Made by a program: the position numbers and the translations under genes. The notes beneath the pieces are model-generated. The model was not told the origin of the DNA and did no database searches. It saw only the letters and a list, made by a program, of their open reading frames with translations. Below, piece after piece: positions 3,651 through 46,704 of a stretch of 64,000 nucleotides of DNA (its first letter is position 1; each line of letters opens with the position of its first letter). The DNA is from an uncultured Alphaproteobacteria bacterium (GTDB taxonomy: Bacteria > Pseudomonadota > Alphaproteobacteria > HIMB59 > GCA-002718135), in NCBI GenBank assembly GCA_902614085.1, contig CACMJS010000001.1, forward strand, positions 299,127 to 363,126. Reading direction: 5' to 3'.

Positions 3651-4349
3651 TTAACTTAAATAAGATTTTCTTGAAATTATCTCTGTTTTTATTCTTAAAA
3701 TGGCTATTGCTATTCCAATCAATATAAATGCAAATGTCATAATAATTAAAGGCGCCATCATTGAAGGATCAATGCTAGGTTTAGATAATTTACTTATTGT
3801 TGCAGGTTGATGTAAGGTATTCCACCAATCCACAGAAAATTTAACTATCGGCAGGTTTACTGATCCAACAAGAATAAATATAGCAACAACCTTTTCTCTA
3901 ACAATCCTATTTTCAAAAGATAAATTCATAAAAATAATAATTAGATAAATAATAAAAAGTATCGCAACAGATGTTAAACGCGCATCCCATACCCACCAAG
4001 TACCCCACATTGGTTTTCCCCACAAAGATCCACTTATTATACATATTAAAGTAAAAACAGCCCCTATCGGAGCTACTGCAGTATTAAAAATAAAACCAAA
4101 GGGTATTCTAAAAGCAAGTGCCAAAATACTATAAAGAATCATTATTGTATAAGTTAGTAAAGCTAACCATGCACTTGGAACATGTACATACATTATTCTT
4201 ACTGTTGATCCTTGCTGATAATCATCTGGTGATAAATAAAAAGAAAACAATAATCCTATTGCAAACAATATGATAGAAAAGATCAGTAATGGTCTAAACA
4301 AATAATCAGCCATCTCATTAAATTTACTAGGATTAACTAAGAACTTCAT
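3651..4349 (-). CDS. ccmC: Heme exporter protein CcmC
   Basis: WGKPMWGTWWVWDARLT (WWD domain), YVHVPSAW, WWNTLHQ. Confidence 0.97.
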   Translation of the reverse strand: MKFLVNPSKFNEMADYLFRPLLIFSIILFAIGLLFSFYLSPDDYQQGSTVRIMYVHVPSAWLALLTYTIMILYSILALAFRIPFGFIFNTAVAPIGAVFTLICIISGSLWGKPMWGTWWVWDARLTSVAILFIIYLIIIFMNLSFENRIVREKVVAIFILVGSVNLPIVKFSVDWWNTLHQPATISKLSKPSIDPSMMAPLIIMTFAFILIGIAIAILRIKTEIISRKSYLS

Positions 4350-4350
4350 A

Positions 4351-5022
4351 TTAGTTATTTTCTAATGAAAGTTTAAGACACAACCCGCTTGCCCAGGGAT
4401 TTATAGCAAAAACAATTAACAATATTCCAAATAATATATTTATAAGAGAATTAAAGCTTTCTTGCATATTAATTATACCTACTGAAAAAATAATTACTGG
4501 AACACTAAATATCATAACAACGACACTACCCAACAGAAAGTTTCTTTGATTCATTAGGTTCATTGAAGATGAAATTGAACCTAAACAGGACAGAATAAGT
4601 GATCCTATGCCAAAACTAGCAAATAAGTAGAAAAGTTTATCATTAGCAATGTTTAGTAAGATGCATGCAATCGGTATTGATAATAAAAAAGGTACTTGTA
4701 CAAACACAAAATGCGAAAAAGTTTTTAAAATAGCAATGAAACCAAAGCTAAACCCATTTAAATGTATAATCAATAAATTACCATTTTCAAAGTCATCTTG
4801 ATAAAATTTTCTTAGAGATAAAGTTGAACTTAATAGTAACAATGTCCACAATATACCGACTCCTATGATAGAAATGGTTTCCTTATCTGGTCCAATAGAG
4901 AAAATAAAAATAAATATTGATATGAAAAAGAAAATAATATTTGTTAAAATATCTTGAACACCACTCATATTTAATTTGTATTCTCTGTAATAAAAGAAAA
5001 TTATTTTATTTAAAAAATTCAT
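4351..5022 (-). CDS. ccmB: Heme exporter permease CcmB
   Basis: Hydrophobic protein with FYQDDFENG motif, between ccmA and ccmC. Confidence 0.88.
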   Translation of the reverse strand: MNFLNKIIFFYYREYKLNMSGVQDILTNIIFFFISIFIFIFSIGPDKETISIIGVGILWTLLLLSSTLSLRKFYQDDFENGNLLIIHLNGFSFGFIAILKTFSHFVFVQVPFLLSIPIACILLNIANDKLFYLFASFGIGSLILSCLGSISSSMNLMNQRNFLLGSVVVMIFSVPVIIFSVGIINMQESFNSLINILFGILLIVFAINPWASGLCLKLSLENN

Positions 5023-5026
5023 TATT

Positions 5027-5632
5027 TTATAATTGTATTTCTTCTGTCACATAAATCCCTGGATTTTGATGTGAGCTAAAAATTATAGACCCTTCTTTAG
5101 AGCAATGATCTTCAAAAGTTTGTTTCATTAGCTCAATTGAATCTTCATCTAAATTAGAAAGGGGCTCATCTAAAATCCAAACATTTTTGTTTTCTATTAT
5201 TAATCTTAAAAATTCTAATTTTTTAGTTTCGCCAAAAGATAATGTTCCAACTTTCTTATCCAAATAATTATCTAATTTTAATGTTTTTAATGCTGTTTCA
5301 ATTTGAGCTTCATTAATTTTTGATATAAAAAATTTTTTCCAAATATTAACATTATCTCTGATAGTTAATTTTCTTAAGCTTGATGTTGTATCACCAATGT
5401 ATGTAACATGATTATAGAAATCATATAAATTTTTCTTCAATAATTTTCCTTTCCAATATATTGATCCAAATGATGGCTCTAATAGATTAAGAATTGCTTT
5501 TATTAATGTAGTTTTGCCAGAACCGTTTTTACCTTTTAAAATGGTAATATTGCCAGCTGAAAGTGATAGATTAATATTTTCAAAAATTTTTTTATCTAAT
5601 CTCTCTATGGATAAATCTTTAACAATTAACAT
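5027..5632 (-). CDS. ccmA: Heme ABC exporter ATPase CcmA
   Basis: Walker A GKNGSGKTT, Walker B WILDEP; first gene of ccm operon. Confidence 0.92.
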   Translation of the reverse strand: MLIVKDLSIERLDKKIFENINLSLSAGNITILKGKNGSGKTTLIKAILNLLEPSFGSIYWKGKLLKKNLYDFYNHVTYIGDTTSSLRKLTIRDNVNIWKKFFISKINEAQIETALKTLKLDNYLDKKVGTLSFGETKKLEFLRLIIENKNVWILDEPLSNLDEDSIELMKQTFEDHCSKEGSIIFSSHQNPGIYVTEEIQL

Positions 5633-5669
5633 TATTAAGATCTAATTACTTTTTGATTTAAAACAATAA

Positions 5670-5692
5670 AAAACGGGGCATAACCCCGTTTT
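5670..5692 (-). terminator. Intrinsic terminator downstream of the Lys-rich gene
   Basis: AAAACGGGG-N5-CCCCGTTTT stem followed on the minus strand by TTTATTGTTTT. Confidence 0.75.
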
Positions 5693-5714
5693 ATCTTTTG
5701 AAAAAGATAAGAAA

Positions 5715-5741
5715 AAGAAAACTTTAATTTAAAGTTTTCTT
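5715..5741 (-). terminator. AT-rich perfect 12-bp inverted repeat followed by T-run
   Basis: AAGAAAACTTTA-att-TAAAGTTTTCTT, 17 nt after the stop at 5759. Confidence 0.5.
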
Positions 5742-5758
5742 GAAAAATTGAAGTATTA

Positions 5759-5935
5759 CTATCTTCTCTTTTTCTTCTTTTTAGCAGCTTTTTTCTTTTT
5801 CTTTTTAGGAGCTGCTTTTTTCTTTTTCTTAGGAGCAGCTTTTTTCTTTTTCTTTTTAGGAGCTGCTTTTTTCTTTTTCTTTGGAGCTGCTTTTTTCTTT
5901 TTCTTTGGAGCAGCTTTCTTTTTCTTCTTAGCCAT
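5759..5935 (-). CDS. Lysine-rich histone H1-like / protamine-like protein (58 aa, AAPKKKKK repeats)
   Basis: ATG at 5935 with AAGGAG RBS (5942-5947); MAKKKKK(AAPKKKKK[K])x5 AAKKKKKRR; 37 K, 2 R, no acidic residue. The track start at 5986 lies in the leader. Confidence 0.8.
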   Translation of the reverse strand: MAKKKKKAAPKKKKKAAPKKKKKAAPKKKKKKAAPKKKKKAAPKKKKKKAAKKKKKRR

Positions 5936-5958
5936 AAAATACTCCTTGTATTTTGTTA

Positions 5959-5995
5959 CCCCGGAGGAACCCCCCTCCCTCATCACCTAAGTGAT
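5959..5995 (-). promoter_or_regulatory. GC-rich structured 5' leader of the Lys-rich gene
   Basis: ATCAC-TTAG-GTGAT and GGAGG-GGGGTT-CCTCC hairpins in an otherwise very AT-rich intergenic region. Confidence 0.5.
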
Positions 5996-6230
5996 AAATA
6001 TAAAAGGCTGACTATTTATTCCCAAAACTTACGCTTAAAGTCAACAATATAGCAATATTTTAAAATTAACTAAGAGTAAGAAGTTCGAAGATTAAAAATT
6101 AAATATAAATTAAAAAAATTTTTTGTAATCTTCATATTTTTTGGCAGAATTCTGATAATAATTTAACATTTTGCTATACAAAAAATTATCTTCATACTAT
6201 TTATTTATTATAATTATTTTTTAAATTATC

Positions 6231-8873
6231 ATGAAAAACGTGAATTCTTTTGATTCTGAACATTTGATTAAAATAAATAACCAAAATTTTAGATATTTTG
6301 ATTTAAATGTAGTAGCAAAACATTTTGATATTGATCTTTATAAAGTTCCAATTTCAATAAAAGTAATACTAGAAAATTTAATTAGAAATGAGGATGGTGA
6401 AAATATTTCTAAAAGTATGATCTCTAATGTATTTTTCTCATTAAAAGATAGAAATAAAAAAAATGAAAAAACAGAGATAGCTTTTTTTCCAACACGTGTA
6501 CTTATGCAAGATTTTACCGGAGTACCAGCTGTTGCAGATTTAGCTGCGATGAGAAATGCACTAAAATCAAAAGGAATTGAGCCAAAAAAGATAAATCCTC
6601 TTTCTAGGGTTGACTTAGTTATAGACCATTCTGTTATGGTTGATAATTATAAAAATAATAACTCACTTAATGAAAATGTTAAGAAGGAATTTGAAAGAAA
6701 TAAAGAAAGATATGAATTTTTAAAGTGGGGTCAAAGTTCATTTGATAACTTTTACTTGGTACCCCCTGGAGCTGGTATTTGTCATCAAGTAAATTTAGAA
6801 AATATTGCTAAGACAGTTTGGTTAAAAGAAATTGAGAATAAAAAATATTTATTTCCAGATTCTGTGGTAGGAACTGATAGTCATACGACAATGGTTAATT
6901 CTCTTTCAGTACTAGGATGGGGTGTAGGAGGGATTGAAGCTGAGGCAGCTATGTTAGGCCAAGCAATTTCAATGAATATACCAGACGTAATCGGTTTTGA
7001 ACTTAAAGGATCTTTGAAGGAAGGAATTACTGCAACTGATTTAGTATTATCAATTACAAAAATTTTACGAGATAAAGGTGTAGTAGGGAAATTTGTAGAA
7101 TTTTATGGAAACGGTTTAGCGAATTTATCTTTAGCCGATAGAGCAACTATATCTAATATGGCACCTGAGTATGGCGCAACTTGTGGATTTTTTCCTACAG
7201 ATGAAGAAACAATTAATTACCTTAAGTTAACTGGTAAAGATAATGAACATCTAAATATTGTTGAAGTATATTCAAAAAAACAAACTCTTTGGGCGGATGA
7301 AAATTATGCACCAGAATACTCAGATAAAATAATACTAGATTTAGATTCTATTGAACCTTCTCTTGCTGGACCAAAAAGACCTCAAGATAAAATTCTTTTG
7401 AAAGAGGTCCCAGCAGAATTTAGTAAGATGGATAGCAATGTAAATAATATTAAAGATAAATTAAATACAGGTGATATTGTAATAGCTGCAATAACTAGTT
7501 GTACAAATACATCTAATCCAAATGTAATGATCGCAGCAGGATTAGTTGCTAAAAAGGCAGCAGATTTAGGTTTAGAGGTTAAACCTTGGGTTAAGACTAG
7601 TTTAGCGCCAGGAAGTAAAGTTGTTAGTGATTATCTTGATAAGGCCGGTTTAACAGAGTACCTTGATCTATTAGGCTTTAACACCGTTGGCTATGGATGT
7701 ACAACTTGCATAGGAAATTCTGGCCCTTTAGATGAATGGATTTCTAATGAAATTAGATCAAATAATTTGACTGTTTGTTCAGTATTATCTGGAAATAGAA
7801 ACTTTGAAGGTAGAGTTCACCAAGAAGTCAAAGCAAACTTTCTTGCTTCACCACCTCTTGTCGTTGCTTATGCTATTGCAGGTAATATTAATATTAATCT
7901 TACAACTGATCCACTTGGTAAATCAAAATTTGGAGAAGAGATATTCTTAAAAGATATATGGCCATCAAATAAAGAAATTAATGAAACACTTGGTTTATGT
8001 TTAACGCCTGAAATGTTTAAAGAAAGATACAGGGAAATATATAAAGGAGATGATAATTGGTTATCAATTAATAATTCAAAGGAAACAACATATAATTGGA
8101 ATGATACTAGCACTTATATAAAACATCCGCCTTTTTTCAATACAGAAAATAAATTTGAGTTAAAGGATATTAAAGATGCAAGAATATTGGCATTATTAGG
8201 TGACAGTGTAACAACCGATCATATTTCACCAGCTGGGAATATTAAAGAAGATAGTCCTGCTGGTTATTATTTAACAGACAGACAAATTAATCCTAAGAAT
8301 TTCAACTCATATGGATCAAGACGAGGTAATCATGAAATTATGATGAGGGGTACCTTTGCTAACATTAGAATAAAGAACCAGATTTTAAATAATGTAGAGG
8401 GAGGTTTTACAAAATCTTTTTTATCTAATAAACAAATGCCAATATATGATGCAGCTCAAGAATATATTAATAATAATGTTGATACAGTTATTATAGCTGG
8501 AAAAGAATATGGTACTGGGTCGTCTAGAGATTGGGCAGCTAAAGGCACAAGACTCTTAGGTGTAAGAGCGGTAATTGCAGAGAGTTTTGAAAGAATTCAT
8601 AGATCTAATTTAATTGGCATGGGGGTATTGCCTCTTGAATTTATGAATAATGAAAACAAAATAAATCTTAATATTTTAGGCCACGAGCTTGTCTCTATCT
8701 CTGGTTTATCTGAACTAAAACCTGGAATTATACTTAGTTGTAAAATTAATTCTGCTGAGCCTAAAAGTATAAAATTAAAGTGCAGAATTGATACTAAAAA
8801 AGAACTTGAATACTACAAAGCTGGAGGAATTTTAAACTACGTTTTAAATGAAATAATATCAGAAGCCGCTTAA
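6231..8873 (+). CDS. acnA: Aconitate hydratase A
   Basis: RVLMQDFTGVPAV, AITSCTNTSNP, GCTTCIGNSG, DHISPAG, GSSRDWAAKG. Confidence 0.98.
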   Translation: MKNVNSFDSEHLIKINNQNFRYFDLNVVAKHFDIDLYKVPISIKVILENLIRNEDGENISKSMISNVFFSLKDRNKKNEKTEIAFFPTRVLMQDFTGVPAVADLAAMRNALKSKGIEPKKINPLSRVDLVIDHSVMVDNYKNNNSLNENVKKEFERNKERYEFLKWGQSSFDNFYLVPPGAGICHQVNLENIAKTVWLKEIENKKYLFPDSVVGTDSHTTMVNSLSVLGWGVGGIEAEAAMLGQAISMNIPDVIGFELKGSLKEGITATDLVLSITKILRDKGVVGKFVEFYGNGLANLSLADRATISNMAPEYGATCGFFPTDEETINYLKLTGKDNEHLNIVEVYSKKQTLWADENYAPEYSDKIILDLDSIEPSLAGPKRPQDKILLKEVPAEFSKMDSNVNNIKDKLNTGDIVIAAITSCTNTSNPNVMIAAGLVAKKAADLGLEVKPWVKTSLAPGSKVVSDYLDKAGLTEYLDLLGFNTVGYGCTTCIGNSGPLDEWISNEIRSNNLTVCSVLSGNRNFEGRVHQEVKANFLASPPLVVAYAIAGNININLTTDPLGKSKFGEEIFLKDIWPSNKEINETLGLCLTPEMFKERYREIYKGDDNWLSINNSKETTYNWNDTSTYIKHPPFFNTENKFELKDIKDARILALLGDSVTTDHISPAGNIKEDSPAGYYLTDRQINPKNFNSYGSRRGNHEIMMRGTFANIRIKNQILNNVEGGFTKSFLSNKQMPIYDAAQEYINNNVDTVIIAGKEYGTGSSRDWAAKGTRLLGVRAVIAESFERIHRSNLIGMGVLPLEFMNNENKINLNILGHELVSISGLSELKPGIILSCKINSAEPKSIKLKCRIDTKKELEYYKAGGILNYVLNEIISEAA

Positions 8874-35668: not shown

Positions 35669-35743
35669 TGGCGGTCTCGTAGGGACTCGAACCCCAAATC
35701 CATGTTCCGAAGACACGTGTGATATCCATTTCACCACGAGACC
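35669..35743 (-). tRNA. tRNA-Arg (anticodon UCG)
   Basis: GGTCTCG-TG-GTGA-AATGGATA-TCAC-A-CGTGT-CTTCGGA-ACATG-GATT-TGGGG-TTCGAGT-CCCTA-CGAGACC-G-CCA: full cloverleaf, A20 Arg identity element, G37, encoded CCA. Confidence 0.95.
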
Positions 35744-38757: not shown

Positions 38758-39948
38758 ATGAAAAATTTTTTTTTAAATGATCCTAATCTCTTAGTATACG
38801 GATTTGTCATGGTCTTCTTTGCAAGTTTTGGACAGACTTTTTACATTGCATTATTTAACGATGATATTCGAAATCTGTATAAAATAACAGATGGTGAGTT
38901 TGGATTAGTGTACGCCATAGCAACGCTTGTAAGTTCATTTTTATTTATAAACTTTGCTAAATTAATAGATAAAATTGATTTAAGATTATACTCCATAGGT
39001 ATTATTCTTGGTTTAGCTTTTGCTTGCACTGGTTTTTATTTTATTTTCGATAATATTTTTCATCTTTTTCTTATTTTATTTTTATTACGTTTTTTTGGAC
39101 AGGGAGCTATGACACATGCCGGCTCAACTTCAATGGCAAGATATTTTTTAATTGATAGAGGTAAGGCAATATCTGTTGCAACACTTGGAGGAATGTTAGG
39201 TATAATGTTTTTACCAAAGATTATCGTTAATTTGGACTCATACTTTAGTTTTAAAACTCTTTGGTTTTTAACAACTTTGACTCTTTTGATCTTAATACCA
39301 ATAATATACTTTATTCTTCATAATCAAAAAAGTAGGGATGCTGCTTTTCAAAAAAATATTGATAATGAGAAAACACATAAAAGTTGGACCATTACAGAAA
39401 TTTTAAAAGACCGAGTTTTTTTCATTTATTTTCCATTAGTTGCAGCCTTTCCATTTATTGGTACTGGGCTAATGTTTCATCAGATTTATATTTTTGATGC
39501 TAAAGGGTGGACAATGGAAATGCTTGGGAACGGTTATATATATTTTGGATTATTTTCTATTTTAGGTTTATTAATAGGAGGACCCTTAATAGATAAGATA
39601 AATACAAAAAAAGCAATACCTTTTGTGCTATTACCTTTGTTACTCTGTATCACCATTCTTTTTTTCTTTAATAATTATTGGTCATTCGTGCTTTACATGT
39701 CTTTATTTGGATTTAACTTAGGTTTATCAGCACCGTTTATGGGATCACTCTGGGCAGAAATTTATGGAGTGAAAAGTATTGGAACTGCTAAAGCTTTACT
39801 GCACGCAGTTGGGGTATTTGCAAGTGCCTTATCGCCTGTAGTTTTTGGTTATATTATTGATTGGGGTTATGGAATATCAGTTATATTTTTAATCAGCTTC
39901 ATTATGATTGTTGTATCATCAATTTTACCTATAATTTATAAAACATGA
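38758..39948 (+). CDS. MFS transporter
   Basis: ~12 TM segments, LIDKIDLR motif-A-like repeat, RGKAISVATLG. Confidence 0.88.
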   Translation: MKNFFLNDPNLLVYGFVMVFFASFGQTFYIALFNDDIRNLYKITDGEFGLVYAIATLVSSFLFINFAKLIDKIDLRLYSIGIILGLAFACTGFYFIFDNIFHLFLILFLLRFFGQGAMTHAGSTSMARYFLIDRGKAISVATLGGMLGIMFLPKIIVNLDSYFSFKTLWFLTTLTLLILIPIIYFILHNQKSRDAAFQKNIDNEKTHKSWTITEILKDRVFFIYFPLVAAFPFIGTGLMFHQIYIFDAKGWTMEMLGNGYIYFGLFSILGLLIGGPLIDKINTKKAIPFVLLPLLLCITILFFFNNYWSFVLYMSLFGFNLGLSAPFMGSLWAEIYGVKSIGTAKALLHAVGVFASALSPVVFGYIIDWGYGISVIFLISFIMIVVSSILPIIYKT

Positions 39949-40085
39949 ATAAACAAATAATGGAGAGTCTTAATTTTCTAATCAAGGAATATAAACGATT
40001 AAAAAAGAAAAAAGAAAATAGAAGCATCAGCAGTGATGAACTAGAAACTTTAAAACAACTTGAACAATACTTAGGTAAAAAATAA
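39945..40085 (+). CDS. 46-aa small protein translationally coupled on both sides (not in ORF track)
   Basis: MNKQIMESLNFLIKEYKRLKKKKENRSISSDELETLKQLEQYLGKK; ATGA overlap with MFS stop, TAATG overlap with zapE start. Confidence 0.7.
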   Translation: MNKQIMESLNFLIKEYKRLKKKKENRSISSDELETLKQLEQYLGKK

Positions 40086-41119
40086 TGTTTAATGTTATTG
40101 ATCAATACAATAGTTTTGTTGAAAATAATTTTATAAAAAAAAATAAAGATCAAATTGAATTTTTAAAAGAAGCAAATAATGTATGGTCATCTTTTAGTAA
40201 AACAAAGTTATTTTTTAAGGATAAAATTTTCGAAGGAATTTATCTTTATGGTCAAGTTGGAACAGGAAAAACATTTTTATTAAATTTATTTTATCAAAAT
40301 ACTAAGATTGGAAAAAAAATTCATTTTAATAACTTAATGAATGAAATCCATGAACAAGTTAATAAATCAGAAAATAAAGAACTTGCAATCGAAAACTATA
40401 TAAAAAATTTAAGTAGAAATTACAAAATAATATTTATTGATGAATTACATATTTTTAATATTGTTGACGCACTAATAATAAAAAAAATATTTAATTATTT
40501 TTCTAAATATAAAATATTTGTATTGCTGTCGTCAAATTTTCATCCAGATAATTTATATAAAGATGGTTTGCAGAGAAATGACTTTCTGCCATTTATTGAT
40601 TTAATTAAAAAAAATTTTTTTCTTTATGATATTAGTATTAAAACTGATTTTCGTCGACAAACGTTAAATCAATCAAAGACATATTTTACACCTATAACAA
40701 CTGAAACTTCAAATGAATTTGAAAAATTATTTAATCGCTTTGTTGATCCCTCCCATTTAACAACTGTAAAAATAAAATCTAAAAGTCGTGAACTAGAGTT
40801 TGATAAATGCACATCAAATCTAATGATGATAGATTTTGAAAATCTTTGTGAAGTAAATTTTGGTAATGAAGATTACAAAAATATTGCAGATAAATTTAAG
40901 TTGGTATTTTTAAAAAATGTTCCTGAATTTGATAATCAGAAGAAAGATGCGTGCAGAAGATTTATTGGATTAATTGATATGTTATATGAAAATAATTGTT
41001 CAATAGTAATTTTAGCGTCAAAACCTATAAATTCATTAAATAATATAAATACTCTTGCAGAAGAATTTAAAAGAACTGCTAGCAGATTATATGAAATGAC
41101 TATAGTAAAACCAGATTGA
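40085..41119 (+). CDS. zapE: AFG1/ZapE family ATPase
   Basis: GIYLYGQVGTGKT, FIDELHI, NLYKDGLQR, RRFIGLIDMLYE, RTASRLYEM. Confidence 0.93.
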   Translation: MFNVIDQYNSFVENNFIKKNKDQIEFLKEANNVWSSFSKTKLFFKDKIFEGIYLYGQVGTGKTFLLNLFYQNTKIGKKIHFNNLMNEIHEQVNKSENKELAIENYIKNLSRNYKIIFIDELHIFNIVDALIIKKIFNYFSKYKIFVLLSSNFHPDNLYKDGLQRNDFLPFIDLIKKNFFLYDISIKTDFRRQTLNQSKTYFTPITTETSNEFEKLFNRFVDPSHLTTVKIKSKSRELEFDKCTSNLMMIDFENLCEVNFGNEDYKNIADKFKLVFLKNVPEFDNQKKDACRRFIGLIDMLYENNCSIVILASKPINSLNNINTLAEEFKRTASRLYEMTIVKPD

Positions 41120-42105
41120 TGAAATACATAATCAGATTTTTAGTAAGCACTGTAGTTTTATTAGCAGTAGTTTATTTTACTGCAGGTTTCTATGTTGCTT
41201 ATCAAATTTTAAAAATAGATCCAACTTGTGGTTTACACGAAGGATCTCTTCCTAATTCATGGAGTACAACAGTTGACTCTCATGAATATTCTATTCTTGC
41301 ACGACAAAAAGTAAGAGAAAATTTTAACTTTAAAGACTATTATTTAGATGAATGGCAAGATGTATACTTTGAATCTCGTGACTCAGACATTAAGATTAAT
41401 GGATGGCTGTTTAATTATTTTCCAAATAGACCAATTATAATTGTAACACACGGTATAAGCCCGAATGGTAAATGTAAGTCTGAAGCAAATCTTACTGCAA
41501 GTTTTTTAGTTAATAAAAAATTTAATGTTCTTACGATAGATTTAAGAAACTACGGCCAAAGTGATACTGTAAGTAGTTATGATGATTTAGGTTTAAAGTC
41601 ATATAATGATATTCTTGGTGCATTTGATTTTTTAAAAAAAATTGGTTTCAAGTCTAATAGCATTGGATTACATGGAATATCTCTTGGTGCAAGCACCTCT
41701 ATTTTTGCAGCACATGCAGAACCGCAAATACGTGCCGTTTGGGCAGATAGTTCACTTGCTGAATTTAATATGATTTTAAAAGATGAAATAGCAAGATATG
41801 GTCTTGCTATAGAATTTGGGCCAGTAGTTAGTTTAGCTGGAAGAATCTTAACTGGAACAGACCCAAGAGAATTATCTCCAGCTAAAAAATTATCAAAGAA
41901 CCAATATTATTTTTTTACTCATGGCGACTCTGATACAAGAATCTTAACAAGACACTTTAATTATTTTAAAGAATATACAAATCAAAATAAAATTAATGCT
42001 GAGTTTTGGTTAGTTGAAAACTCTTATCATGTAGATGCTATGTTTAAATATCCCGAAGTATACTCTAAAAAGATGGAAGAATTTTTTAATAAAAATTTAA
42101 AATAG
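41116..42105 (+). CDS. Membrane-anchored alpha/beta hydrolase
   Basis: N-terminal TM, oxyanion HG, GISLG nucleophile elbow, HGDSD, terminal His (HVDA). Confidence 0.85.
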   Translation: MMKYIIRFLVSTVVLLAVVYFTAGFYVAYQILKIDPTCGLHEGSLPNSWSTTVDSHEYSILARQKVRENFNFKDYYLDEWQDVYFESRDSDIKINGWLFNYFPNRPIIIVTHGISPNGKCKSEANLTASFLVNKKFNVLTIDLRNYGQSDTVSSYDDLGLKSYNDILGAFDFLKKIGFKSNSIGLHGISLGASTSIFAAHAEPQIRAVWADSSLAEFNMILKDEIARYGLAIEFGPVVSLAGRILTGTDPRELSPAKKLSKNQYYFFTHGDSDTRILTRHFNYFKEYTNQNKINAEFWLVENSYHVDAMFKYPEVYSKKMEEFFNKNLK

Positions 42106-42241
42106 GCCGGACTCTAAAACTAGTTTGTACCTTGGCAGACACCTCTCTAGAAAAAGAAACTCAACTAATTATCAAACGGCGGGTAAGATAATTAAAATTC
42201 TTGGCGTTCCTCCGAAGCTAAGAAACGAGTATTATCCGGCT
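42106..42241 (-). ncRNA. Putative ~140-nt rod-shaped non-coding RNA (6S-like architecture, identity unconfirmed)
   Basis: Intergenic segment richer in GC than its flanks; GCCGG/CCGGC and ACTC/GAGT closing stem, inner TTAATTATC/GATAATTAG, AAGAA/TTCTT, ACGCC/GGTGT helices; promoter directly upstream; T-rich tail. Confidence 0.6.
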
Positions 42242-42246
42242 TATTA

Positions 42247-42275
42247 AGAGTAATATCTATCTATTTAAAATTCAA
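42247..42275 (-). promoter_or_regulatory. sigma70-like promoter of the putative ncRNA
   Basis: TTGAAT-N17-TACTCT, ending 6 nt before the GCCGG stem. Confidence 0.55.
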
Positions 42276-42434
42276 GATTTTTAGTTAAATTTGGCATTAA
42301 ATTTGGATGATTTTCATAAAATTTGGCACTTTTTATCAACATTTTACAAACTTCCGTGATAGTAAGAAAAAATAACTAAACCATTAATATTTTGAAATTT
42401 GAAGAAAAATACTTACTTATGAAATATAAAAAAA

Positions 42435-42815
42435 ATGAAAAAAATGACTGATAATAGACCATTATCACCTCACCTATCTATTCACAAAAGAGTACTTACA
42501 GCAGTATTTTCAATTTTTCATAGGATATCTGGAATAGGATTAAGTGTGGGTGCGCTATTAATTTCAATTTGGTTTTTTTTAATTAGTTTTGGTCCCGAAT
42601 TTTATATTTATTTTGAAATTCTTTCTAAGAGTATTTTGTTTAAACTAGTTTTAATGATTTGGACTGTCGGTATTTTTTACCATTTATTTAATGGATGTAG
42701 AAAATTATATTGGTCATTCGGTATTGGAATGGAATTATCTCAAGTGTATAAATCTGGTTATGCTGTTATATGTTTAACTTTAATTTCTAGTTTAGTTGTT
42801 TGGTATTTCGCATGA
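42435..42815 (+). CDS. sdhC: Succinate dehydrogenase cytochrome b556 subunit
   Basis: RPLSPHL, SIFHRISG, YHLFNG; alternative start 42444. Confidence 0.95.
   Translation: MKKMTDNRPLSPHLSIHKRVLTAVFSIFHRISGIGLSVGALLISIWFFLISFGPEFYIYFEILSKSILFKLVLMIWTVGIFYHLFNGCRKLYWSFGIGMELSQVYKSGYAVICLTLISSLVVWYFA

Positions 42816-45741: not shown

Positions 45742-46704
<963 letters not shown>

What the first reader, a model, noticed from the sequence alone, without database searches (positions are those of the whole stretch)
42101..42275. Unannotated ~140-nt rod-shaped RNA gene with its own promoter, divergent from the TCA superoperon
Seen: TTGAAT-N17-TACTCT (42275-42247, minus) points into a segment richer in GC than its flanks, starting at GCCGG. 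It folds end to end: GCCGG/CCGGC, ACUC/GAGU, UAG/CUA, a weakly paired central region, then ACGCC/GGUGU, AAGAA/UUCUU and UUAAUUAUC/GAUAAUUAG closing a 13-nt loop, followed by a U-rich tail. There is no convincing coding ORF. Established: a rod with a central bubble is the 6S RNA architecture, but 6S is usually longer and often beside zapA/ygfA, which are absent here. Inference: a compact divergent 6S RNA or a new sRNA class. Its 3' end meets the hydrolase stop, so it may also terminate that operon. Folding was done by eye.
Basis: partly seen in the sequence, partly recalled or inferred. Interest (0 to 1): 0.72.

Follow-up and report, generated by a model that had tools for sequence, protein, structure and literature searches.

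The report
New branched small RNA beside sdhC
A real, independently transcribed, about 137-nt structured small RNA gene of a previously undescribed family sits head-to-head with the succinate dehydrogenase operon in a clade of abundant AT-rich marine alphaproteobacteria; it folds into a branched shape, not a 6S-like rod, and its function is still unknown.

Summary
The gene is real and lies on the minus strand (about 42241 to 42105). It has a conserved sigma-70-type promoter (TTGAAT, 16-17 nt, TACTCT/TAATCT) and a U-rich tail, and it matches no Rfam family. I found 186 complete copies (133 distinct) in SAGs, MAGs and marine metagenomes. Every copy with enough flanking DNA is divergent from sdhC (171 of 171), even where SdhC identity falls to 36%.

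Covariation and a G-U versus A-C count (504 vs 68 cells) fix the strand. They support a branched fold: closing stem P1, stem P2 enclosing hairpins P3 and P4, then hairpin P5. Three blocks are invariant: GCUUCGGAGGAA, a CCGCC pentaloop, and GUGUCUGCCAAGGU. A 6S identity is not supported.

My best reading is a trans-acting structured regulatory or ribonucleoprotein RNA of a new family. One concrete but weak lead concerns the invariant P3 sequence GGAGGAAC. It complements an invariant GUUCCUCC in the leader of a tiny Lys/Ala-rich gene upstream of ccmABC. This resembles the predicted sRNA-1/PBC-3 pair of SAR11.

The parts
42270..42275 (-). -35 hexamer TTGAAT of the RNA gene's promoter
   Evidence: Sequence. 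Conserved as (C/G/A)TTGAA(T/A) in 98 diverse relatives, with the first T in 97%.
42247..42252 (-). -10 hexamer TACTCT (TAATCT/TAATTT in relatives), 16-17 nt from the -35; it places the transcription start at about 42241-42243
   Evidence: The start position is inferred from promoter geometry and was not measured.
42105..42241 (-). The structured RNA itself, 137 nt in the window and 136-171 nt in relatives
   Evidence: Covariance model R1 gives 117.6 bits and finds a single copy in the window. There are 186 complete homologues, 133 distinct. No Rfam match.
42234..42240 (-). P1 5' strand, GCCGGAU
   Evidence: Pairs with 42106-42112. Compensatory changes C-G to U-A in 24 sequences and G-C to A-U in 2.
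42106..42112 (-). P1 3' strand, GUCCGGC; its end abuts the hydrolase stop codon (42103-42105)
42226..42230 (-). P2 5' strand, ACUCG
   Evidence: Pairs with UGAGU at 42159-42163. Of the 5 pairs, 95.3% of cells are paired and 4 pairs show changes on both sides.
42159..42163 (-). P2 3' strand, UGAGU, just 3' of hairpin P4
42198..42224 (-). P3 hairpin: base UUCUU/AAGAA, apical GC-UUC-GGAG-GAA(c)GC. It contains the invariant block GCUUCGGAGGAA, with the SD-like GGAGG
   Evidence: 97.7% of cells paired. The base shows U-A to U-G changes only. Invariant columns are listed.
42166..42194 (-). P4 hairpin UAAUUAUC/GAUAAUUA, with loop UUACCCGCCGUUU. Two inner pairs leave an invariant CCGCC pentaloop
   Evidence: All 5 core pairs covary and 95.7% of cells are paired. 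The inner A-U to U-G change is seen in 29 sequences.
42120..42150 (-). P5 hairpin: CUAG/CUAG outer helix, an internal loop, then the invariant GUGUCU-GCCA-AGGUAC with tandem G-U/U-G pairs
   Evidence: The outer helix is paired in 98.5% of cells, with U-G/G-U variants. The inner helix is invariant except for U-A to U-G in 21 sequences.
42091..42104 (-). U-rich 3' tail, UAUUUUAAAUUUUU. It overlaps the last codons of the hydrolase gene on the + strand
   Evidence: Mean 7.1 U in the first 10 nt against a background of 3.55. 66% of sequences have at least 7 U, against 4.4% of background windows.
42332..42350 (+). Degenerate remnant (TTATCAACAtttTACAAAC) of two tandem DnaA-box-like 9-mers, which are intact in most other lineages. 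It lies between the two divergent promoters
42392..42419 (+). Conserved sdhC promoter (TTGAAA, 16 nt, TACTTA), more than 150 nt downstream of the element. The element is therefore outside the sdhC mRNA if this promoter is the one used
   Evidence: Assigned from consensus only.
5950..5975 (-). Candidate trans target: the leader GAGGGAGGGGGGUUCCUCCGGGGUAAC of the 58-aa Lys/Ala-rich ORF (5759-5935, minus), upstream of ccmA and ccmB
   Evidence: Best non-self duplex site for the P3 block in the window: -28.9 kcal/mol against -23.3 for the next. The core GUUCCUCC is invariant in five lineages.

Best explanation
SHOWN. This is a stand-alone small RNA gene on the minus strand. Transcription from a conserved sigma-70-type promoter starts at about 42241 and ends in a U-rich tract just past 42105. 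The roughly 137-nt transcript adopts a conserved branched fold. A closing stem P1 brings the two ends together. Stem P2 stacks on P1 and encloses hairpins P3 and P4. Hairpin P5 follows. Three sequence blocks are invariant across lineages whose SdhC proteins are only 36-60% identical: the P3 apex GCUUCGGAGGAA, the P4 CCGCC pentaloop, and the P5 apex GUGUCUGCCAAGGU with its fixed tandem G-U pairs. The gene is always divergent from sdhC. It belongs to no described RNA family.

INFERRED. Invariant loops on covarying stems point to an RNA that presents fixed surfaces to conserved partners. The RNA therefore most likely acts in trans, as a regulatory RNA or ribonucleoprotein tied to respiratory and TCA gene expression. 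It probably shares regulatory input with sdhCDAB through the common divergent control region.

MOST CONCRETE MECHANISM (about 0.25 on its own). The SD-like P3 apex GGAGGAAC base-pairs with the anti-SD-like GUUCCUCC in the leader of the small Lys/Ala-rich gene upstream of ccmABC. It would compete with the leader's own GGAGG arm and so remodel that leader, changing translation or stability.
For: Gene and strand:
- The promoter hexamers are conserved in 98 relatives.
- G-U pairs outnumber A-C 504 to 68 on the minus strand. That gives 89.3% standard pairs on the minus strand, against 79.9% if the + strand is read.
- The U-rich tail is enriched.

Fold:
- 91.9% of cells are paired and 26 pairs change on both sides.
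- 372 compensatory cells, against 142.6 +/- 9.0 in shuffles (0 of 500 reach the observed value).
- Slid controls give 29-45% paired. The same picture holds on the plain MAFFT alignment.
- RNAalifold independently returns the same helices.
- The per-sequence MFE is this fold in 15 of 19 representatives.

Family and context:
- 74 of 77 genome loci carry it and the other 3 are cut contigs.
- sdhC is divergent from the RNA in 171 of 171 loci. The hydrolase is next to it in only 159 of 167, and other genes replace it at the 3' end elsewhere.
- There is one copy in the window.
- No Rfam hit in the window or in 10 diverse relatives.
- It is absent from the published structured-RNA lists for HTCC1062 and HIMB5.

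Target lead:
- 9 contiguous Watson-Crick pairs, and 15 of 16 counting G-U, with the leader at 5950-5975.
- The 9-mer occurs only 3 other times in 1.18 Mb of loci.
- The leader is the best non-self duplex site in the window by 5.6 kcal/mol.
- The core GUUCCUCC is invariant in lineages with CcmA at 94%, 71% and about 49% identity. Two of these are the same SAG contigs that carry the RNA: L039/L201 and L053/L210.
- A published parallel exists in SAR11. The loop of sRNA-1 (GAGGGAG) is the complement of a conserved sequence in PBC-3, which lies upstream of cytochrome c biogenesis genes.
Against: - No expression data were available, so the transcript ends are inferred.
- The three invariant blocks cannot show covariation. 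Their local pairing is therefore not proven, for example P3 apex and P5 apex as separate hairpins versus block 1 pairing with block 3 as in the rod.
- P1 is not a local hairpin, so the U tract is not a canonical intrinsic terminator.
- The target lead is weak. Both partners are invariant, so nothing covaries between them.
- The leader's CCUCC also pairs in cis with an upstream GGAGG, which alone could explain its conservation.
- In distant lineages only 8 bp remain, and the leader is no longer clearly the best site in its own locus.
- A second adjacent site (GGGUAA against the P4 loop) is not conserved.
- Fixed tandem G-U pairs and about 50 invariant nucleotides look more like a protein- or ligand-binding RNA than a simple seed-pairing sRNA.
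Confidence: 0.6

Rival explanations
1. It is a protein- or ligand-binding structured RNA with no base-pairing target. It would be a ribonucleoprotein component, a protein sponge, or a trans-acting sensor whose invariant loops and tandem G-U pairs form a binding pocket or protein interface.
For: About 50 invariant nucleotides sit in three blocks on covarying stems. The tandem G-U/U-G pairs of P5 are fixed in 99 of 99 sequences, as is the CCGCC pentaloop. The two ends are paired, as in SRP, 6S, Y RNAs and riboswitch aptamers. Evidence for a specific mRNA target is weak.
Against: No partner protein gene is linked to it. The only constant neighbour is sdhC. No known aptamer or RNP family matches. 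This reading is not exclusive of the best explanation.
Confidence: 0.25
2. It is a highly diverged, compact 6S RNA, or a functional substitute, that binds RNA polymerase holoenzyme by mimicking an open promoter.
For: The window's own MFE is a rod. Invariant blocks 1 and 3 are largely complementary to each other (rod helix 6, 88.6% of cells paired), so a rod-like alternative conformer is possible. No 6S RNA is listed among the known RNAs of P. ubique HTCC1062. It is a widely conserved single-copy gene with paired ends.
Against: RF00013 and related models give nothing even at E<=10 or in relatives. The evolutionarily supported fold is branched, and the rod-specific helices are paired in only 36-81% of cells. 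Even the rod has only small internal loops and no 12-15-nt central bubble. At 137 nt it is short for a 6S RNA. There is no ygfA/zapA context.
Confidence: 0.07
3. It acts in cis at the sdhC control region. Either divergent transcription of the RNA gene, or the RNA itself, modulates sdhCDAB promoter activity. This could work together with the protein that binds the two DnaA-box-like sites between the promoters.
For: The head-to-head arrangement with sdhC is invariable (171 of 171 loci) with a spacer of fixed size. Tandem DnaA-box-like 9-mers sit at fixed positions between the two promoters in most lineages.
Against: An elaborate conserved fold with invariant loops is not needed for promoter interference. 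The DnaA-like boxes have decayed in the window's own lineage while the RNA is unchanged. There is no complementarity between the RNA and the sdh operon mRNAs: the 9-mer is absent from 1.18 Mb of sdh loci except in antisense of mdh.
Confidence: 0.06
4. It is a + strand element: a leader or riboswitch of sdhCDAB, or the terminator of the hydrolase operon.
For: The + strand of the window folds better on its own (-39.7 kcal/mol, z = -3.59) than the minus strand (-37.1 kcal/mol, z = -1.54). The element lies between the hydrolase stop codon and sdhC.
Against: The G-U versus A-C count is 504 to 68 in favour of the minus strand. The conserved promoter points the other way. The conserved sdhC promoter lies downstream of the element, about 10-20 nt before the start codon. 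No U-run follows the structure on the + strand. The hydrolase is dispensable for the element's presence.
Confidence: 0.02

Closest known systems
SAR11 'sRNA-1' candidate and its partner 'PBC-3' (Stav et al. 2019, PMC6429828, supplementary text)
   Same: Both are stand-alone, roughly 150-nt small RNA candidates confined to AT-rich marine alphaproteobacteria. In both, a purine-rich, SD-like hairpin loop is the exact complement of a conserved pyrimidine-rich sequence near cytochrome c biogenesis genes. In SAR11 the pair is GAGGGAG with a sequence in PBC-3. Here it is GGAGGAAC with GUUCCUCC in a leader.
   Different: The architecture and sequence differ. sRNA-1 is two hairpins around a single-stranded GAAUCA, and neither GAAUCA nor GAGGGAG occurs in this RNA (sequence). 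The genomic context differs too: sRNA-1 lies between convergent genes, whereas this RNA is always divergent from sdhC. Both pairings are predictions only.
6S RNA (SsrS, Rfam RF00013)
   Same: Both are single-copy, widely conserved small RNAs with paired 5' and 3' ends and their own promoter. The window sequence alone can be drawn as a rod.
   Different: The 6S model does not match. The conserved fold is branched and has no large central bubble. The RNA is shorter, and there is no ygfA context.
Iron- or respiration-linked base-pairing sRNAs that control sdhCDAB (RyhB, NrrF; SdhX from the sdh-suc operon 3' end)
   Same: A small RNA is associated with TCA and respiratory genes. It ends in a U-rich 3' tail. 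Trans-acting regulation is a possibility.
   Different: Those RNAs are loosely structured, with a single-stranded seed and a local terminator hairpin, and they pair with sdh mRNAs. This RNA is tightly folded, lacks a local terminator hairpin, and shows no complementarity to the sdh operon.
Riboswitch aptamers and other junction-type structured RNAs
   Same: A closing P1 stem, multi-way junctions, invariant loops and junction nucleotides, and fixed non-canonical pairs.
   Different: It is not upstream of any gene on its own strand. The sequence downstream is the antisense of varied genes. It matches no known aptamer class.

Membership tests
6S RNA (RF00013 and related 6S models) | Match to the family covariance model | tested here: not met
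   cmscan found no hit at the gathering threshold, none at E<=10 on 41950-42450, and none at E<=1 in 10 diverse homologous loci.
6S RNA (RF00013 and related 6S models) | Extended rod with a large central bubble flanked by a closing stem and a terminal stem | tested here: not met
   The branched model is paired in 89-92% of cells, with 25-26 covarying pairs. Rod-specific helices are paired in 36-81% of cells. RNAalifold returns the branched fold.
6S RNA (RF00013 and related 6S models) | Typical length of 150-200 nt and frequent linkage to ygfA/zapA | tested here: not met
   The RNA is 137 nt here and 136-171 nt in relatives. Its neighbours are sdhC and an alpha/beta hydrolase.
6S RNA (RF00013 and related 6S models) | Binds sigma-70 holoenzyme and templates product RNAs | not testable with these tools
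   Needs RNA polymerase co-immunoprecipitation and pRNA detection.
SRP RNA, tmRNA, RNase P RNA, tRNA | Match to the Rfam models or to ARAGORN | tested here: not met
   The only hits are tRNAs elsewhere.
SAR11 sRNA-1 candidate (Stav 2019) | Two hairpins flanking a conserved single-stranded GAAUCA, with GAGGGAG in the P2 loop | tested here: not met
   Neither motif occurs in the 137-nt RNA or its homologues (sequences). The published alignment itself was not available for comparison.
Canonical Hfq-type base-pairing sRNA | Local GC-rich terminator hairpin followed directly by a U tail, with a single-stranded conserved seed | tested here: inconclusive
   The U tail is present. The helix before it is the long-range P1, not a local hairpin, and the terminator scan finds none. 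The candidate seed GGAGGAAC lies partly in a predicted stem.
cis-regulatory leader or riboswitch of sdhCDAB | Lies on the coding strand within the 5' UTR of the regulated gene | tested here: not met
   The structure is on the opposite strand. The conserved sdhC promoter lies downstream of it.

The most novel reading that the evidence does not exclude
The RNA is a new class of trans-acting structured 'sensor' or ribonucleoprotein RNA. Its invariant core (the CCGCC pentaloop, the tandem G-U helix and the junctions) would bind a metabolite or protein that reports respiratory, TCA or iron-heme state. Its SD-like P3 loop would then reprogram translation of the Lys/Ala-rich nucleoid-like protein and cytochrome c maturation locus. 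This would give streamlined marine alphaproteobacteria, which have few protein regulators, an RNA-based link between the TCA cycle and the respiratory chain. Alternatively it could be the missing 6S-like global regulator of this clade in an unprecedented branched form.
Probability: 0.15. Interest if true: 0.85.

Novelty: new variant of a known kind. Interest (0 to 1): 0.62.

Why it matters
HIMB59/AEGEAN-169-like and related AT-rich alphaproteobacteria are among the most abundant bacteria in the surface ocean. They have streamlined genomes with very few protein regulators.

This single-copy structured RNA is undescribed and more conserved than its neighbouring proteins. About 50 nucleotides are invariant where SdhC is only 36-60% identical. 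It is locked next to the succinate dehydrogenase/TCA gene cluster. It is therefore a strong candidate for an important regulator or ribonucleoprotein in these organisms.

It adds a well-supported new family to the set of bacterial structured RNAs. The alignment and covariance model are ready for Rfam-style curation. It also gives a directly testable hypothesis that links it to the cytochrome c maturation locus, parallel to an untested prediction in SAR11.

Tried and rejected
1. Rfam families (6S, SRP, tmRNA, RNase P, riboswitches): no match in the window or in relatives. ARAGORN found nothing.
2. The end-to-end rod: tested on 99 sequences and worse than the branched model.
3. A + strand RNA: rejected by the G-U/A-C asymmetry and the promoter orientation, although the + strand of the window alone folds better.
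4. A repeat or mobile element: there is a single copy in the window and the synteny is fixed.
5. A coding ORF (42125-42247, + strand, 40 aa): no Pfam hit, and close relatives differ by 1-nt indels.
6. mdh as a target of the P4 loop (CGGCGGG at 45780): the site varies synonymously among relatives, so it is rejected.
7. sdhC codons (CACCUC) pairing with GAGGUG of the RNA: this holds only in the window's lineage, because most relatives have GAAGUG. Rejected from the sequences.
8. A second leader site, GGGUAA against the P4 loop UUACCC: not conserved in distant lineages.
9. A replication origin at the DnaA-box-like pair: GC skew shows no switch near 42 kb.
10. Literature: the P. ubique HTCC1062 intergenic-region table and the HIMB5 motif table list nothing next to sdhC. 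Searches for a described SAR11/HIMB59 6S or sdhC-linked RNA found nothing.
11. The first homologue search with CcmA returned only hits of 93% identity or more. Diverged lineages were reached only through cluster representatives.
Full report
WHAT IS IN THE SEQUENCE

The window is AT-rich, about 28% GC. Around the finding all genes are on the + strand: an MFS transporter (38758-39948), an AFG1/ZapE-like ATPase (40085-41119), an alpha/beta hydrolase (41116-42105), then sdhC (42435-42815), sdhD, sdhA, sdhB and mdh. The 329-nt gap between the hydrolase stop codon and sdhC holds a segment of 42% GC at 42105-42241, between flanks of 20-25% GC.

TTGAAT is at 42275-42270 and TACTCT at 42252-42247 on the minus strand, 17 nt apart. 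AGCCGG starts at 42241. GGCCGG sits at 42105-42110, touching the stop codon TAG at 42103-42105. A U-rich run follows on the minus strand.

IT IS A CONSERVED ELEMENT, NOT CHANCE

Using SdhC as bait, 77 loci were recovered from single-cell and metagenome-assembled genomes of uncultured marine Alphaproteobacteria. Where named, they are Pelagibacteraceae/Pelagibacterales, HIMB59 or MarineAlpha5. Of these, 74 carry the element at the same place upstream of sdhC. The other three are contigs cut before that point.

Nucleotide identity to the window is 72-99%, even where SdhC protein identity is only 52-60%. In total there are 186 complete copies and 133 distinct sequences, 136-171 nt long.

Three blocks are invariant in a 99-sequence non-redundant alignment. 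On the RNA strand they are GCUUCGGAGGAA, CCCGCCG and GUGUCUGCCAAGGU. A covariance model built from the family finds exactly one copy in the 64-kb window, so it is not a repeat.

STRAND

The single-sequence energy favours the + strand: -39.7 kcal/mol with z = -3.59, against -37.1 kcal/mol with z = -1.54 for the minus strand. The comparative data decide the other way.
- In the supported helices, G-U pairs on the minus strand number 504 cells, against 68 A-C cells that would be G-U on the + strand. That means 89.3% standard pairs on the minus strand and 79.9% on the + strand.
- A sigma-70-type promoter is conserved on the minus strand in 98 diverse relatives. Its form is TTGAA(T/A), 16-17 nt, then TAAT(C/T)T or TACTCT. 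It is placed so that transcription would start at the first base or bases of the closing stem.
- The 10 nt after the closing stem hold 7.1 U on average, against a background of 3.55.

The transcript ends are inferred, not measured.

FOLD

Fifteen of 19 representative homologues instead fold into one common branched structure. I tested both models on the 99-sequence MAFFT alignment.

The branched model:
- 89.3% of cells are paired and 25 pairs change on both sides.
- No shuffle out of 500 reaches the observed value on any of the five measures.
- Slid controls give 34-47% paired.

The rod model:
- 82.2% of cells are paired overall.
- Its own helices are paired in only 36-81% of cells.
- Its long block 1/block 3 helix is almost entirely invariant, so it is uninformative.

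After realignment to a covariance model, which leans towards that model, the branched fold reaches 91.9% paired. It has 26 covarying pairs and 372 compensatory cells, against 142.6 +/- 9.0 in shuffles. RNAalifold run on that alignment independently predicts the same helices: 37 pairs, 15 of them with compensatory changes.

The helices in window coordinates are:
- P1: 42240-42234 with 42112-42106.
- P2: 42230-42226 with 42163-42159.
- P3: 42224-42198, with apex GC-UUC-GGAG-GAAcGC.
- P4: 42194-42166. Its loop closes by two further covarying pairs, leaving a CCGCC pentaloop.
- P5: 42150-42120, made of CUAG/CUAG and then GUGUCU-GCCA-AGGUAC, with tandem G-U/U-G pairs fixed in all 99 sequences.

P1, P2 and P4 are well supported by compensatory changes. 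The P3 base and the outer P5 helix are supported by one-sided U-A to U-G changes. The apical parts of P3 and P5 never vary, so their local pairing is only a prediction. Blocks 1 and 3 are also complementary to each other, so a rod-like alternative conformer cannot be excluded.

CONTEXT

sdhC lies divergently, 160-250 nt from the RNA's 5' end, in 171 of 171 loci with enough sequence. This holds down to 36% SdhC identity. The hydrolase is at the 3' end in 159 of 167 loci. Where it is absent, unrelated genes of either orientation take its place. The RNA is therefore not a leader for a gene on its own strand.

The spacer also contains a conserved sdhC promoter close to the start codon. In the window this is 42392-42397 and 42414-42419. 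That places the element outside the sdhC mRNA (consensus only).

In every lineage except the window's own group the spacer also carries two tandem DnaA-box-like 9-mers, for example CTATCCACAgacTTATACACA. They sit at fixed positions between the two promoters. GC skew gives no sign of a replication origin here.

WHAT IT IS NOT

- No Rfam 15 family matches: not at gathering thresholds over the whole window, not at E<=10 on the region, and not at E<=1 in ten diverse homologous loci.
- ARAGORN finds no tRNA or tmRNA.
- The published surveys of structured RNAs in P. ubique HTCC1062 and HIMB5 list nothing beside sdhC.
- The defining structural features of 6S RNA (model match, rod, central bubble) were tested and not met. 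Polymerase binding could not be tested.

HOW IT MAY WORK

No experiment or expression dataset was available, so the mechanism is inference.

The RNA has about 50 invariant nucleotides displayed on covarying stems, fixed tandem G-U pairs, paired ends, a single copy and its own promoter. This is typical of RNAs that offer defined surfaces to conserved partners. I therefore read it as a trans-acting regulatory RNA or ribonucleoprotein. It is probably co-regulated with sdhCDAB through the shared divergent control region.

I searched for base-pairing partners of the invariant loops. One candidate stood out. The P3 block is complementary to the leader of a 58-aa Lys/Ala-rich ORF (5759-5935, minus strand). 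That ORF lies just upstream of ccmA and ccmB and is divergent from aconitase.
- The match is 9 contiguous Watson-Crick pairs (CGGAGGAAC with GUUCCUCCG), or 15 of 16 counting G-U.
- It is the best non-self duplex site in the window: -28.9 kcal/mol against -23.3 for the next, with a scan mean of -8.3 and sd of 3.2.
- The 9-mer occurs only three other times in 1.18 Mb of related loci.

I then fetched the homologous acnA/ccm region from lineages with CcmA at 94%, 71% and about 49% identity. Two of these are the very SAG contigs that carry the RNA. The small gene, its promoter, its structured leader and its terminator are all conserved. The 8-nt core GUUCCUCC is invariant.

The lead is weak for four reasons:
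- The flanks differ, so distant lineages keep only 8 bp, and there the leader is not clearly the best site in its own locus.
- CCUCC also pairs in cis with an upstream GGAGG.
- Nothing covaries between the partners.
- A second adjacent site is not conserved.

The idea has a published parallel. [quoted passage not shown] I give this specific mechanism about 0.25. The protein- or ligand-binding reading is about as likely and is not exclusive of it.

NOVELTY AND VERDICT

The finding is a real gene and a new, well-supported family of bacterial structured small RNAs in an ecologically dominant clade. It is not a member of any family tested. Function remains open, and the decisive tests are listed separately.

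Noticed in passing
window 42332-42350; e.g. L055, L069, L073 at -135/-123 from the RPLSPH codons of sdhC: Two tandem DnaA-box-like 9-mers (nTATCCACA, 3 nt, TTATnCACA) lie 12 bp apart, in sdhC orientation, at a fixed position between the RNA promoter and the sdhC promoter. They are present in nearly all lineages. In the window's own group they have decayed to TTATCAACAtttTACAAAC. GC skew shows no origin-like switch.
   Followed up: partly
window 5672-6050 (minus strand): A compact transcription unit lies between aconitase and ccmA. It has a promoter (TTGACT...), a structured GC-rich leader with a covarying hairpin and a GGAGG/CCUCC hairpin, a 58-aa Lys/Ala-rich ORF (MAKKKKKAAPKKKK...), and its own terminator (AAAACGGGGCATAACCCCGTTTT). 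It is almost invariant at the nucleotide level, synonymous sites included, in lineages whose CcmA is only 71-94% identical.
   Followed up: partly
window 3651-8873; loci L199-L213: The arrangement acnA (divergent), small Lys/Ala-rich ORF, ccmA, ccmB, ccmC (then ccmE) is conserved across all lineages fetched. This may correspond to the 'PBC-3' region described upstream of cytochrome c biogenesis genes in SAR11 HIMB5.
   Followed up: partly
window 42286-42330: There are three closely spaced copies of AAATTTGG(C/A) upstream of sdhC in the window's lineage. They could be a regulator binding site that replaces the decayed DnaA-like boxes.
   Followed up: no
L053, L091, L146, L192 (RNA nt about 12-40): A subgroup of the RNA family carries an extra hairpin of about 30 nt (e.g. 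UGUCAUUUUAUGAUGA) inserted between P1 and P2. This gives RNAs of 156-171 nt with lower model scores (79-93 bits).
   Followed up: no
L052 (contig CAYTIE010000056.1): A 3.4-kb contig binned as 'uncultured Flavobacteriaceae' carries the alphaproteobacterial sdhC locus with the RNA. This is probably a mis-binned contig.
   Followed up: no
window 35672-35743 (minus strand): This is the only Rfam hit in the 64-kb window: a tRNA gene (56.5 bits).
   Followed up: no
window 42392-42437: The conserved sdhC promoter (TTGAAA, 16 nt, TACTTA) ends about 15 nt before the ATG. The sdhC mRNA would therefore be nearly leaderless and has no recognisable Shine-Dalgarno sequence.
   Followed up: no
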